From the NCBI RefSeq assembly GCF_009914755.1, contig NC_060936.1: a stretch of 64,000 nucleotides of DNA; one strand, written 5' to 3'. The stretch comes from the human T2T-CHM13v2.0 reference genome, Homo sapiens. Shown here in pieces: positions 53,901-56,900 of this stretch. The stretch's first letter is position 1. Every line of letters starts with the position of its first letter. A program made the position numbers and the translations under genes. The notes beneath the pieces were generated by a model that saw only the letters and a program-made list of their open reading frames with translations, searched no databases and had not been told where the DNA came from.

Positions 53901-56900
53901 CTGTGGTATACACCCTTAATCCCTCCTCTACATCTCCAGGCTGTCTACAGTACCAACTGCCCAGTGTGGGAGGAAGCGTTCCGGTTCTTCCTACAAGACC
54001 CTCAAAGCCAGGAGCTCGATGTGCAAGTGAGATAATCACCTCTTCATCCCCTCCCGAATACCCTATTCTGACTTCCCAGATCTGTACCATTTCTCCTCTC
54101 CTTCTTTTCCCTTGATTCCTATTTTTAATCCATCTACCTAGACTCCCCACCTCCCTGAATATCTCTCCATTGTTCCCCAACTGTCGCTCCAGAATAATAT
54201 TTTTTTTTTTTTTTGAGATGGAGTCTCGCTCTGTTGCCCAGGCTGGGGTGCAGTGGTGCGATCTCGGCTTACCGAAACCTCCACCACCTGGGTTCAAGCA
54301 ATTCTCCTGCCTCAGCCTCCCGAGTAGCTGGGATTACAGGCAGGCACCACCATGCCCGGCTAATTTTTGTATTTTTAGTAGAGACAGGGTTTCACCATGC
54401 TGGCCAGGCTGGTCTCGAACTCCTGACCTCAGATGATCCGCCTGCCTCAGCCTCCCAAAGTGCTGGGATTATAGGCATGAGCCACTGCACCTGGCCTTAG
54501 TTCATAGGTACTTGTTCTTGAATGATTTTATATATGTGTGTCTTGTCTATGAAACTGGCCAGTAAGCATTGTGAAAGCAGATGCTATGTTTCGTGCTTTC
54601 TCCATGACCTTTAAAATGCTGAATGTTAACAATTTTATTGAGGCATAATTTACATACCATAGAATCACTCATTTTAGGTATACAAAAATTATTCTGAGGC
54701 TGGGCACGGTACCTAAAATGAGTGATTTTATGGTATGTAAATTATGCCTCAATAAAATTGCTAACATTCAGCATTTTTTTTTTTTGAGACAGTTTCGCTT
54801 TTGTTGCCCAGGCTGGAGTGCAATGGCGTGGTCTCGGCTCACCGCAACCTCCACCTCCTGGGTTCAAGTGATTCTCCTGCCTCAGCCTCCTGAGTAGCTG
54901 GGATTACAGGGATGTGCCACCATGCCTGGCTAATTTTTTTTGTATTTTTAGTAGAGACGGGGTTTCTCCATGTTGGTCAGGCTGGTCTCGAACTCCCAAC
55001 CTCAGGTGATCCGCCCGTCTCAGCCTCCCAAAGTGCTTGGATTACAGGCGTGAGCCACCGTGCCCGGCCCAACATTCAGCATTTTAAAGGTCATAGAAAA
55101 AGCACAAAACATAGTATCTGCCTTCACAATACTCACTGGCCAGTTTCAGTTTCATAGACAAGACATACACATATAAAATCATTCAAGAACAAGTACATAT
55201 GAACTAAGGCCAGGCATGGTGGCTCACACCTGTAATCCTAGCACTTTGGGAGGCCAAGGCAGGTGGATCACCTGAGGTCAGGAGTTTGAGAATAGCCTGG
55301 TCAGCATGGTGAAACCCTATCTCTACTAAAAATACAAAAATTAGCCAGGCATGGTGGTGCGTGCCTGTAATCCCAGCTACTTGGGAGGCTGAGGTAGAAT
55401 TGCTTGAGTCCGGGAGGCGGAGGTTGCAGTGAGCCAAGATAGCGTCACTGCACTCCAGCCTGGGTGACAGAGTGAGACTCCGTCTCAAAAAAAAAAAAAA
55501 AATCAAAAATTTGCCAGGTGTGGTGGCATGTGTCAGTAATCCCAGCTACTTGGGAGGCTGAGGCAGAAGAATCATTTGAACCCGGGAGGTAGAAGTTGTA
55601 GTGAGCTGATTTCAAGCACTGCACTCTAGCCTGGGTGACAGAGCAAGACTCTGTCTCCAAAAAAAAAAAAAAAAAAAAAAGGAACAGAAGAATAGCAACA
55701 ATTACATATGAATTTGTGGGAGTAAAATATCCATAGTATAGGACTAAGGAGGGTCAGAGAAAGGGATAGGCTGGAGTAACTAGGGAGATTTTGTGAAGCA
55801 AAAAATTGGATTTTAATTGAGTCTTGAAGGATGAGTAGGATTTAAATAGGCCGAGGGAAGAGAATGAGGACTTTCCAAATAGTGGGAGCAGAATGAACAA
55901 AGGTGGAAGGGGCCATGGATTGGGCAGAGGACTATAAAAGATGGCTCTGGCCGAGGTGGGCGGATTGCCTGAGCTCAGGAGTTTGAGACCAGCCTGGGGA
56001 ACACCATGAAACCCTGTCTCTACTAAAAAATACAAAAATTTAGCTGGGCGTGACGGCATGCGCCTGTAGTCCCAGCTATTTGGGAGGCTGAGGTAGGAGA
56101 ATGGGTTGAACCCAGGAGGTCGAAGTTGCAGTGAGCCAAGATGGCGCCATTGCACTCCAGCATGGGCGACAGAGTGAGACTCTGTCTCAAAAAAAAAAAA
56201 AAAAAAAAGATGGCCCTGAGTGGAGCAGGAGGTTTGTGATTGGTACAGAGAGGAATGAAGTTGGAGCCATGTTATCATTTTCACAGTATGCCTCCCTTTC
56301 CCCTAATCCCTTCACTACAGTCCTTCCTCCTGTGCCTGTAGGTGAAGGATGATTCCAGGGCCCTGACTTTAGGAGCACTGACGCTGCCTCTGGCCCGCCT
56401 GCTGACTGCCCCAGAACTCATCCTGGACCAGTGGTTCCAGCTCAGCAGCTCTGGTCCAAACTCCAGACTCTATATGAAACTAGTCATGAGGGTATGGAAA
56501 TAGAGGAGGTACTGAGGTGTGGGGGAAAGGCCTGTTGATTCTTTGGTATTAAGAGTAAGGAAAGGGACCCCCCTAAGATTAAAAGAGCTAATACATGTAG
56601 AAGTGCCAAGCAGGCACAAAAACATATATTGATCTGACTGGTGGAAGGAATGGCTTATGAGTTGAGGGGGTGTGGAGGGAACCCTGTAGAGATGAGCCCA
56701 GCCAGGGCAGCACCTAGTTCCCCTGTCACAGCCCCTCCTCTACCCCACCCCACATGCTTTGCCTGCTGGTGACGAGCTGCACTTCTTTGATTCAGCATCA
56801 TACTACCCTTCCTAGATCCTGTACTTGGATTCATCAGAAATATGCTTCCCCACGGTGCCTGGTTGTCCTGGTGCTTGGGACGTGGACAGTGAGAATCCCC

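What the first reader, a model, noticed from the sequence alone, without database searches (positions are those of the whole stretch)
54198..55500. ~1.3-kb fold-back palindrome with non-Alu arms in ESYT1 intron 15
Seen: 54497-54680 (ttagttcataggtacttgttc...cactcattttaggta) is a >90% identical reverse complement of 54710-54777 plus 55086-55207, around a 29-nt spacer. The spacer contains Alu scraps (tacaaaaatt, ggctgggcacgg). The outer Alus extend the symmetry and share the non-consensus CAGCATGGTG, suggesting one Alu was copied with its flank. A later Alu (~54778-55070, TSD AACATTCAGCATTTT) split the right arm. Most mismatches between the arms are transitions. Inference: this is an inverted duplication by template switching. 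It predicts a ~470-bp pre-mRNA stem that could be an ADAR substrate with uniquely mappable sequence, a possible small-RNA source, and a DNA cruciform that the later Alu destabilised.
Basis: partly seen in the sequence, partly recalled or inferred. Interest (0 to 1): 0.7.

Follow-up and report, generated by a model that had tools for sequence, protein, structure and literature searches.

The report
Old inverted duplication in ESYT1 intron
A 1.3-kb stretch of ESYT1 intron 15 is a real, roughly 30-million-year-old inverted duplication, most likely a DNA-copying slip between two oppositely oriented Alu elements, and it should fold into a long RNA hairpin but shows no sign of a selected function.

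Summary
The palindrome is real. The left arm 54200-54680 pairs with the right arm 54710-54777 plus 55086-55501, around a 29-nt loop. A later Alu with a perfect 15-nt target-site duplication splits the right arm. The non-Alu arms are 172/184 identical (11 transitions, 1 transversion), and 123 nt of them occur nowhere else in the genome. So this is a local duplication, not two insertions of a common repeat.

The two outer Alus are no more alike than many random Alu pairs of the window (identity rank 68 of 595), and they share no private substitution. The loop reads as an Alu 5' junction, an A-rich target-site copy followed by the first 12-13 nt of an Alu. That target-site copy matches the sequence beside the left Alu's tail. 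The right Alu has its own flanking 16-nt repeat.

My best reading (about 0.55) is that two resident inverted Alus guided a two-jump template switch. It copied 184 nt of flank, and probably about 180 nt of Alu, backwards. The main rival (about 0.27) is a plain fold-back copy of the whole Alu plus flank.

The RNA hairpin is predicted in silico only. Editing, small RNAs and primate dating could not be tested here. This is a known kind of event, of modest interest.

The parts
54187..54199 (-). Putative 3' target-site copy of the resident left Alu. Read on the minus strand it is TATTATTCTGGAG, directly after the Alu's A-tail.
   Evidence: It matches loop 54684-54696 (13 nt, 1 mismatch). The score was reached by 14 of 5000 shuffles and 11 of 5000 random window pieces.
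54200..54496 (-). Left outer Alu, with a T15 tail at 54200-54214 and its head at 54496. It is possibly a chimera: the tail part from a resident Alu, and the head-proximal ~180 nt copied from the right Alu.
   Evidence: Rfam 7SL-type hits on the minus strand; alignments; no target-site duplication around it as it stands today (1591/3000 shuffles); head against tail divergence.
54497..54680 (+). Left non-Alu arm. On my best reading this is the inverted new copy. 54497-54619 is unique in the genome. 54620-54685 (weakly from 54560) belongs to an ancient dispersed repeat.
54681..54709 (+). The 29-nt loop. It consists of TAC (continuing the ancient repeat), AAAAATTATTCTGA (54684-54697, putative 5' target-site copy) and GGCTGGGCACGG (54698-54709, an Alu 5' end). 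The breakpoint lies at 54709/54710.
   Evidence: Rival reading: a piece of Alu linker with a 7-nt insertion.
54710..54777 (-). Right arm, inner part. With 54613-54680 it forms a 68-bp stem at 97% identity.
54778..55070 (-). Later Alu insertion that splits the right arm. Its target-site duplication is at 54763-54777 and 55071-55085.
   Evidence: CpG kept 10/22.
55086..55207 (-). Right arm, outer part. It pairs with 54497-54612 (106/116 identical) and carries a 6-nt tandem duplication near 55141-55152.
55208..55502 (+). Right outer Alu, with an A16 tail at 55487-55502. It is probably an independent resident insertion and the homology partner for the first template switch.
   Evidence: A 16-nt direct repeat at 55188-55203 and 55697-55712 flanks it together with the half-Alu (4/3000 shuffles).
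55505..55680 (+). Half-Alu (right monomer only) with an A22 tail, abutting the right Alu's tail. It lies outside the palindrome.
   Evidence: It is not specially similar to the loop: its score of 9.0 lies near the bottom of the 36 Alus compared.
55697..55712 (+). Second copy of the 16-mer (AACAATTACATATGAA) that also lies 4 nt before the right Alu's head. It is the putative target-site duplication of the right Alu or Alu pair.

Best explanation
The structure is the fossil of one local replication error in an anthropoid ancestor, roughly 25-40 million years ago. The date is an inference from 6.5% arm divergence.

Before the event (inferred). The intron read: left flank, target-site copy, Alu(-), target-site copy, 'gta', a single copy of the 184-nt segment in today's right-arm orientation, then Alu(+).

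The event (inferred). A growing DNA strand that was copying the left Alu annealed to the oppositely oriented right Alu (~85% alike) and copied backwards. It copied the rest of that Alu's head, the 184-nt segment, the old target-site copy and 12 nt of the left Alu's head. It then jumped back, with 0-1 nt of homology, to the start of the 184-nt segment and went on normally.

The product. Formally it is an Alu-Alu 'spacer inversion' that returned about 200 nt too early. An ~18-nt piece is inverted, and 12 nt plus 184 nt (plus probably ~180 nt of Alu) are duplicated in inverted order. A third Alu later landed in the right arm.

Function. The thing is most likely neutral. In ESYT1 pre-mRNA (+ strand) it should fold into a long intronic hairpin: a 68-bp near-perfect core, a 116-bp extension of unique sequence, and the Alu-Alu stems. 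Such a hairpin is an expected ADAR substrate and is degraded with the intron.

Shown: the anatomy, the junctions, the target-site-like repeats and the predicted fold. Inferred: the ancestral order, the jumps, the date and any editing.
For: 1. It is a local duplication. Arm positions 1-123 have only self matches in the 3.1-Gb genome. The arms are 172/184 identical.
2. The loop looks like an Alu 5' junction. GGCTGGGCACGGT at 54698-54710 is Alu-head-like: 21 window matches against 1.2 expected, at Alu starts. The A-rich 13-mer before it matches the sequence directly after the left Alu's tail. That score was reached in 14/5000 shuffles and 11/5000 random windows.
3. The left Alu as it stands has no target-site duplication (1591/3000 shuffles). 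The right Alu plus half-Alu is flanked by a 15/16-identical 16-mer (4/3000). The positive control, the inner Alu, gave 0/3000.
4. The left-arm/loop boundary is not a breakpoint. 24 of 28 genomic copies of the ancient repeat continue past the arm end into the loop. The profile consensus reads ...gtaTacaa, exactly as the left arm plus loop does. The right arm departs from it at 54709/54710.
5. The outer Alus are not a special pair overall: ranks 68, 52 and 63 of 595, with 2 shared non-CpG non-majority states, neither private. With a split at Alu position 180, chosen after seeing the data, the head part has 7/152 non-CpG mismatches (rank 7/595). That is close to the arms' 11/183. The tail part has 10/81 (rank 297/595, the level of a random pair).
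6. The mechanism is documented. Inverted Alus only ~85% alike mediate a first, homology-guided switch, replication then runs in reverse, and the second junction shows 1-9 bp of microhomology (PMC11293582, passages read). Template switching between inverted repeats inverts spacers (PMC8604942, passages). Template switches make hairpins in one step (PMC10710096, passages).
7. Fold predictions: z = -18.9; -887 kcal/mol, arms paired end to end with the inner Alu as a side branch.
Against: 1. No outgroup genome could be examined, so the ancestral order is inferred.
2. The loop also aligns to an Alu linker: 12 exact nt, a 7-nt gap, then 11/13 identical. The exact 11-mer is in 12 of 36 Alus. On my reading that match is a coincidence.
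3. The ancient-repeat homology stops at TATACAA and is not detectable in the reverse complement of the left flank. There was no gain over 20 shuffles and controls, 258/300 random windows scored as high, and the anchored test gave 27/300. The predicted old continuity of arm, target site and flank is therefore not independently confirmed.
4. An unbiased change-point test on arm divergence is not significant (696/2000 permutations). The head-minus-tail difference ranks only 40-60 of 595 at the best splits, and the effect vanishes at splits 100-120.
5. The two Alu tails are 15 and 16 nt, as a whole-Alu copy would predict. However, 80 of 528 other Alu pairs also agree within 1 nt.
6. The right Alu's 16-mer sits 4 nt from the Alu head and 16 nt from the A-run, which is not a textbook target-site duplication.
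Confidence: 0.55

Rival explanations
1. Plain fold-back copy. The left Alu(-) plus the left arm are original. The strand copied the arm and ~29 nt beyond it, where the start of a 5'-truncated Alu or a short templated Alu-linker insert lay. It then folded back and copied the arm and the whole Alu to the end of its tail. It returned through A-rich microhomology at 55503-55512. The whole right arm, including the right Alu, is the copy.
For: The Alu/arm junction is mirrored to the base. The tails are 15 and 16 nt. The palindrome ends exactly at the tail ends, and the right tail is followed by an A-rich Alu linker. The loop's first 12 nt are identical to an Alu linker. The ancient-repeat homology ends just where that linker-like stretch begins, with ATACAA shared, as expected at a microhomology junction. 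Divergence along the arm is statistically homogeneous (696/2000). Non-CpG divergence is 17/233 in the Alu against 11/182 in the arm.
Against: The supposed original Alu has no target-site duplication (1591/3000), while the supposed copy is flanked by a 16-mer repeat (4/3000). The 7 nt TTCTGAG inside the 'linker' are unexplained, yet they match the left flank next to the tail. The half-Alu start is not specially like the loop: its alignment score of 9.0 is near the bottom of the 36 compared. The tail-proximal 100 nt of the two Alus differ at 10/81 non-CpG sites, the median of random Alu pairs. No private substitution is shared.
Confidence: 0.27
2. The same ancestral order as in my best reading (two resident inverted Alus), but made by breakage and repair rather than by a replicative switch. 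One route is an inversion with staggered single-strand breaks that duplicate the flanks in inverted order. Another is an Alu-Alu recombination inversion, or an inserted inverted copy, followed by an Alu-Alu deletion.
For: The product A-b-d'-C'-b'-d-E (b = 12 nt of Alu head, C = ~18 nt, d = the 184-nt arm) is formally what staggered-break inversion gives (my derivation). Alu-mediated inversions are known in the human and chimpanzee lineages (PMC2603318, seen only as a title and abstract start in the listing).
Against: It needs a 184-nt stagger on one side and a 12-nt stagger on the other, or two separate events. Nothing in the sequence separates it from the one-step switch.
Confidence: 0.08
3. 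The right arm plus right Alu is a retro-copy. An antisense transcript running through the arm into the left Alu's tail was reverse-transcribed and inserted 29 nt away.
For: The right unit ends in an A-tail. Loosely similar A-rich Alu-linker-like sequences flank it (54682-54709 and 55503-55523).
Against: Insertion 29 nt from the end of its own source, giving a near-perfect palindrome, is very unlikely for retrotransposition. The flanking 'repeat' has a 7-nt gap and 6/12 mismatches (my reading). Both arms carry derived changes relative to the repeat family, with no one-sided A-to-G pattern.
Confidence: 0.03
4. It is not a duplication at all. Either the arms are independent insertions of a common or palindromic repeat (a MITE-like element), or the palindrome is an assembly artefact.
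For: The inner third of each arm (54620-54685) is an ancient dispersed repeat with at least 40 genomic matches.
Against: Arm positions 1-123 are found only at this locus. Other copies of the repeat match at 79-95%, not 93-97%, and are not palindromic. The arms are 6.5-12% diverged and carry a later Alu, which an artefactual fold-back would not show.
Confidence: 0.02

Closest known systems
Inverted-repeat-mediated template switching of the DUP-TRP/INV-DUP type, including events mediated by inverted Alus (Grochowski et al. 2024, PMC11293582; passages read)
   Same: The first switch uses homology between inverted repeats, and Alus as little as ~85% alike suffice. Replication then runs in reverse. 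The second junction has little or no homology (here 0-1 nt, against 1-9 bp in 14 of 24 patients). A chimeric repeat is expected at junction 1.
   Different: The scale is ~0.4 kb rather than kb to Mb. No segment is triplicated: copy number is 2, and ~18 nt are simply inverted. The event is ancient and fixed rather than de novo and pathogenic. The switch goes to the downstream partner, so the product is a compact palindrome.
Template-switch mutations that create hairpins or invert hairpin loops (Monttinen et al. 2023, PMC10710096, passages read; Abraham and Hazkani-Covo 2021, PMC8604942, passages read)
   Same: Two polymerase hops make an inverted repeat, an inversion, or a mix of inverted and direct repeats in one step. 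Switching that begins in the first arm of an existing inverted repeat inverts the spacer. Primate introns are typical sites, and mutations accumulate afterwards.
   Different: Those events involve arms of about 10-30 nt. Here 184 nt, probably ~370 nt, were copied and the guiding repeats are 300-nt Alus. There is no evidence that this hairpin became a miRNA gene: Rfam's best non-Alu hit was mir-186 at 33.8 bits against a gathering score of 70.
Inverted Alu pairs (IRAlus) as intronic dsRNA and ADAR substrates (PMC526178 and PMC11263572, seen only as titles and abstract starts in the listing)
   Same: Oppositely oriented Alus lie within one intron: left(-)/right(+) and inner(-)/right(+), the latter 138 nt apart. 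They are predicted to pair.
   Different: The stem continues through 184 nt of non-Alu sequence, 123 nt of it unique in the genome. The 68-bp core at 97% is more perfect than typical Alu-Alu duplexes (77-90% here).
Fragile, cruciform-forming palindromes (review PMC7999016, passages read)
   Same: Long inverted repeats, including Alu arms.
   Different: The spacer is 29 nt, the arms are 6-12% diverged, and a 308-nt insertion sits in one arm. The review states that risk rises with arm similarity and with a short or absent spacer. It reports that inverted Alus stalled forks in eukaryotic cells with a 12-bp spacer but not frequently with a 52-bp spacer.

Membership tests
Template-switch inverted duplication | An inverted copy of directly adjacent, otherwise unique sequence | tested here: met
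   Arms 172/184 identical. Arm positions 1-123 match only this locus in the genome.
Template-switch inverted duplication | Junctions explained by two switch points, one side of the loop continuous with its arm and the other a breakpoint | tested here: met
   24/28 copies of the ancient repeat run on from the left arm into the loop (consensus). The right arm breaks from it at 54709/54710.
Template-switch inverted duplication | The ancestral (outgroup) state lacks the inverted copy | not testable with these tools
   No primate genomes are held. The genome search reported that this genome has no relatives here.
Inverted-Alu-guided switch (DUP-TRP/INV-DUP-like) | A pre-existing inverted repeat pair at junction 1, here two independent Alu insertions each with its own target-site duplication | tested here: inconclusive
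   For: the left-flank/loop match (14/5000 and 11/5000), the Alu head in the loop and the right-hand 16-mer (4/3000). Against: the loop also fits an Alu linker, and the 16-mer is offset from the Alu.
Inverted-Alu-guided switch (DUP-TRP/INV-DUP-like) | A chimeric repeat at junction 1 | tested here: inconclusive
   Head part rank 7/595 and tail part rank 297/595 at a post hoc split. The change-point test gave 696/2000. The difference ranks 40-60 of 595 at best.
Inverted-Alu-guided switch (DUP-TRP/INV-DUP-like) | A triplicated segment with an inverted middle copy | tested here: not met
   Only two copies of the arm exist in the genome. [quoted passage not shown]
IRAlu / long intronic dsRNA edited by ADAR | Inverted repeats within one transcript that are predicted to pair | tested here: met
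   The region lies inside ESYT1 intron 15 on the sense strand (gene table supplied with the finding).
IRAlu / long intronic dsRNA edited by ADAR | Observed A-to-I editing or duplex reads | not testable with these tools
   No editing catalogue or RNA data are available. Paper searches gave 0 hits (ESYT1 + 'inverted repeat') and 1 paper that, from its title and abstract start, concerns gestational-diabetes expression analysis and was not read (ESYT1 + RNA editing + Alu). Supplements were not searched.
miRNA or other described RNA family | A match to a curated covariance model at its gathering score | tested here: not met
   The central hairpin scored mir-186 33.8 (gathering 70) and mir-977 26.6 (gathering 109). 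All other hits lie inside Alus and are below threshold.
Palindromic DNA transposon (MITE) | Many dispersed copies of the whole palindromic unit | tested here: not met
   Only the inner ~60 nt is dispersed, and as single non-palindromic copies.
Cruciform-prone fragile palindrome | Near-identical arms with a short or absent spacer | tested here: not met
   29-nt spacer, 6.5-12% arm divergence and a 308-nt insertion in one arm. The criteria come from PMC7999016.

The most novel reading that the evidence does not exclude
The 68-bp, 97%-paired core (54613-54777) and its 116-bp extension of unique sequence may not be inert. The hairpin could be a constitutively hyper-edited, uniquely mappable ADAR1 substrate, or a Dicer-type source of small RNAs, whose folding changes the speed or outcome of ESYT1 intron 15 removal. 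On that reading a replication slip between two Alus created a regulatory RNA element. Nothing here excludes it. In the sense RNA, 8 of the 12 arm mismatches are A-C type and 3 are G-U (derived), so there is no sign that the stem has been preserved by selection.
Probability: 0.1. Interest if true: 0.5.

Novelty: new member of a known kind. Interest (0 to 1): 0.3.

Why it matters
If the Alu-guided reading holds, the locus is a clean natural example of how a pair of inverted Alus can turn ordinary intron sequence into a long hairpin in one step. The old Alu junction is left inside the loop as a tell-tale. That signature, a target-site copy plus an Alu head in the loop of a palindrome, could be searched for genome-wide to count such events.

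For RNA work, the unique-sequence arms give a long intronic duplex whose editing can be read without the mapping ambiguity of Alu-Alu duplexes. Beyond that it is an ordinary, probably neutral, relic.

Tried and rejected
1. Continuity of the ancient repeat across the proposed old target site into the reverse complement of the left flank. If found, this would have proved the ancestral order. It was not detectable:
- The first profile was contaminated by Alus.
- The clean profile of 19 Alu-free members gained nothing over controls and 20 shuffles.
- The summed local alignments to 26 members were no better than random (258/300 random windows scored as high).
- The anchored alignment gave 27/300.
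- By BLAST, 3 of 28 copies ran past the target site in the proposed order, against 0 of 28 and 1 of 28 in two controls. This is too weak to use.

2. Shared private substitutions between the outer Alus. None were found.

3. Change-point in arm divergence. Not significant.

4. Tail-length agreement as evidence for a whole-Alu copy. This is weak, because 80/528 random pairs agree within 1 nt.

5. The half-Alu start as a direct duplicate of the loop. Not supported.

6. Copies of the arm elsewhere in the window. None.

7. Earlier notes of this scan.

8. Literature on this locus. None was found in the main texts searched.

9. MITE, independent-insertion and artefact readings. Rejected and on arm divergence.
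Full report
**What is there**

Reading 54000-55800 and the repeat finder show a large inverted repeat. With the inner Alu and one copy of its target-site duplication taken out, the left side 54200-54680 aligns base for base with the reverse complement of 54710-54777 plus 55086-55501, around a 29-nt loop at 54681-54709.

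Rfam's 7SL-derived model marks Alu-type sequence at these places:
- 54213-54495 (-)
- 54784-55068 (-)
- 55209-55488 (+)
- 55513-55659 (+)

The order along the + strand is therefore:
- left flank
- T15 tail and Alu(-), 54200-54496
- 184-nt non-Alu arm, 54497-54680
- loop
- arm in reverse, 54710-54777 and 55086-55207, split by a later Alu(-) at 54778-55070
- Alu(+) with A16 tail, 55208-55502
- 'TC', then a right-monomer half-Alu with A22, 55505-55680

The inner Alu's 15-nt target-site duplication occurs exactly twice in the window, at 54763-54777 and 55071-55085.

**Numbers**

- The non-Alu arms are 172/184 identical, with 11 transitions, 1 transversion and one 6-nt indel.
- The inner 68 nt are 66/68 identical and the outer 116 nt are 106/116.
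- The Alu parts are 242/276 identical, with 29 transitions, 5 transversions and 13 mismatches in CpG context.
- The centre (54600-54790) folds as RNA at -100.3 kcal/mol against -30.9 +/- 3.7 for 200 shuffles.
- The whole 54190-55510 folds at -887 kcal/mol, with the two arms paired end to end and the inner Alu as a side branch.

**It is a duplication, not two insertions of a repeat**

A search of the window's own 3.1-Gb genome with the left arm found only the locus itself for arm positions 1-123. About 40 dispersed matches (79-95% identity) were found for positions ~124-184 only (again). The arms therefore combine unique sequence with the end of an ancient dispersed repeat. From memory that repeat looks like the 3' end of an old LINE-1 of the L1M type; I did not test this label. 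Arm divergence and the later Alu exclude an assembly fold-back artefact.

**Which junction is the breakpoint**

In 24 of 28 genomic copies of the ancient repeat, the similarity runs on past the end of the left arm into the loop. A profile of 19 Alu-free copies has the consensus ...gtaTacaa, which is exactly what the left arm plus loop reads. The right arm reads ...G--TACCGTGC there. So 54680/54681 is old continuous sequence, and the novel junction is 54709/54710.

**Were the Alus copied with the flank?**

The Alu head meets the arm at the same base on both sides, so at least the head end belongs to the duplicated unit. But the two outer Alus are not a special pair among the 595 pairs formed by 35 near-full-length Alus of the window:
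- They rank 68th by identity, 52nd by non-CpG identity and 63rd by shared non-majority states.
- They share 2 non-CpG non-majority states.

The differences are unevenly spread. There are no non-CpG mismatches between Alu positions 93 and 185, and then 10 in the last ~100 nt plus a 3-nt deletion. With a split at position 180, chosen after seeing that list:
- The head part has 7/152 non-CpG mismatches (rank 7 of 595), as low as the arms' 11/183.
- The tail part has 10/81 (rank 297 of 595, the level of a random pair).

Three checks weaken this:
- The head-minus-tail difference ranks only 60th, or 40th at split 200, and the effect is absent at splits 100-120.
- A permutation change-point test over the whole arm is not significant (696 of 2000).
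- A post hoc Fisher test gives 0.048.

I treat the chimera as suggested, not shown.

**The loop carries an Alu junction**

The last 13 nt of the loop region, GGCTGGGCACGGT (54698-54710), is an Alu 5' end. It has 21 matches at up to 2 mismatches in the window against 1.2 expected, almost all at Alu starts.

The 14 nt before it (54684-54697) are A-rich. They match the sequence directly beyond the left Alu's tail when that is read in the Alu's own sense: AAATATTATTCTG against AAAAATTATTCTG, followed by AG on both sides after a 1-nt gap. That score was reached by 14 of 5000 shuffles and by 11 of 5000 random window pieces.

Tail, then target-site copy, then flank on the left, and target-site copy, then Alu head in the loop, are the two ends of one ordinary Alu insertion. 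The 5' end is now upside down inside the loop.

As it stands today the left Alu has no target-site duplication (1591 of 3000 shuffles do as well). The right Alu plus half-Alu is flanked by a 15/16-identical 16-mer at 55188-55203 and 55697-55712 (4 of 3000). The inner Alu is the positive control (0 of 3000).

**Best model**

Ancestral order: flank, target-site copy, Alu(-), target-site copy, 'gta', arm in right-arm orientation, Alu(+).

- A nascent strand copying the left Alu annealed to the inverted right Alu and copied backwards. It copied the Alu head, the 184-nt arm, the old target-site copy and 12 nt of the left Alu's head.
- It then returned to the start of the arm. The only possible microhomology is the single T at 54710.
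- This reproduces every base of the present order with two jumps.
- It is the small-scale analogue of inverted-repeat-guided switching described for DUP-TRP/INV-DUP. There, inverted Alus about 85% alike suffice for the first step, and the second junction shows 1-9 bp of microhomology in 14 of 24 cases (PMC11293582, passages).
- It also resembles spacer inversion by intermolecular switching between inverted-repeat arms (PMC8604942, passages).
- Template switches are known to create hairpins and to invert hairpin loops in primate introns (PMC10710096, passages).
- It is not a member of the DUP-TRP/INV-DUP structure class, because nothing is triplicated.

**What speaks against it**

- The loop can also be read as a contiguous piece of Alu linker: 12 exact nt, a 7-nt insertion, then 11/13. 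The exact 11-mer is present in 12 of 36 Alus.
- The ancient-repeat similarity ends just where that linker-like stretch begins. I could not detect it in the reverse complement of the left flank.
- That fits the rival in which the left Alu and arm are original, the strand folded back after ~29 nt, copied the arm and the whole Alu, and returned in the A-tail.
- The rival also explains the 15- and 16-nt tails, although 80 of 528 random pairs agree as well.
- The rival leaves three things to chance: the left-flank match, the 16-mer, and the missing target-site duplication of its 'original' Alu. It also leaves 7 loop bases unexplained.

I put the Alu-guided model at about 0.55 and the plain fold-back at about 0.27. 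Breakage-and-repair routes to the same product get about 0.08, and the rest is small.

**Timing (inference)**

- Arm divergence of 6.5% (6.0% at non-CpG sites) is about the human to Old World monkey distance. That suggests roughly 25-40 million years, using commonly quoted primate neutral rates that I recall rather than tested.
- The inner Alu keeps more CpGs (10/22) than the outer ones (8/22 and 5/22), in line with a later arrival.
- Its non-CpG distance from the window majority (14 sites) is not lower than theirs (11 and 10). All three Alu events and the duplication therefore seem close in time.

**What it does**

- Nothing suggests selection. In the sense RNA, the 12 arm mismatches give 8 A-C type pairs, 3 G-U and 1 G-A (derived), so the stem has not been kept by wobble-preserving changes.
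- No curated RNA family matches the hairpin. The best hit was mir-186 at 33.8 bits against a gathering score of 70.
- The whole structure lies inside one intron, so it should not loop out an exon.
- The most likely role is none. In pre-mRNA it should form a long duplex that ADAR enzymes would edit, and it is then degraded with the intron. This is a prediction from the fold and from general knowledge of inverted Alus. No editing or duplex data could be consulted.
- A DNA cruciform is unlikely, given the 29-nt spacer, the diverged arms and the 308-nt insertion (criteria in PMC7999016).

**In print**

No paper in the searched library holds both ESYT1 and 'inverted repeat' (0 hits). One paper holds ESYT1, RNA editing and Alu; from its title and abstract start it concerns gestational-diabetes expression analysis, and I did not read it. 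Broader searches listed nothing on the locus. Supplementary tables of editing catalogues were not searched and may list sites here.

**Verdict**

This is a real and neatly readable structure. It is a new member of a known kind of event, probably neutral, and of modest interest (0.3).

Noticed in passing
55505-55680: A right-monomer-only half-Alu with an A22 tail sits directly after the right outer Alu's A16 tail, separated by 'TC'. It may have inserted into that tail or arrived together with the right Alu. Its start is not specially similar to the loop.
   Followed up: partly
55188-55203 and 55697-55712: A 16-nt direct repeat (15/16 identical) brackets the right Alu plus half-Alu. It is offset by 4 nt from the Alu head and by a purine-rich 16 nt (55681-55696) from the A-run, which may be a decayed tail.
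   Followed up: partly
55141-55152: A 6-nt tandem duplication (CAGTTT twice on the + strand) is the only indel between the non-Alu arms. It looks like slippage after the duplication.
   Followed up: no
54200-55502: There is a strong transition excess between the arms: 40 transitions to 6 transversions overall, and 10 to 1 at non-CpG sites of the non-Alu arms. This is higher than the usual ~2:1 but not significant on these counts (about 0.06 by my own binomial estimate).
   Followed up: partly
54311-54362, 54881-54932, 55342-55393, 55511-55562, 56041-56092 and neighbours: Rfam gives sub-threshold hits to mir-1268, mir-3135 and mir-1285 inside every Alu of the region. These families simply resemble Alu sequence and do not mark genes here.
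   Followed up: no
54620-54685; loci L005-L036: The inner end of each arm belongs to an ancient dispersed repeat with a very well conserved ~55-nt core. At least 40 genomic matches were found, and a 575-nt profile consensus was obtained. At this locus the similarity stops abruptly at TATACAA.
   Followed up: partly
55949-56188: A further Alu(+) lies downstream in the same intron. It forms additional inverted pairs with the two minus-strand Alus (49-nt arms at 81-84%) and could compete for pairing in the RNA.
   Followed up: no
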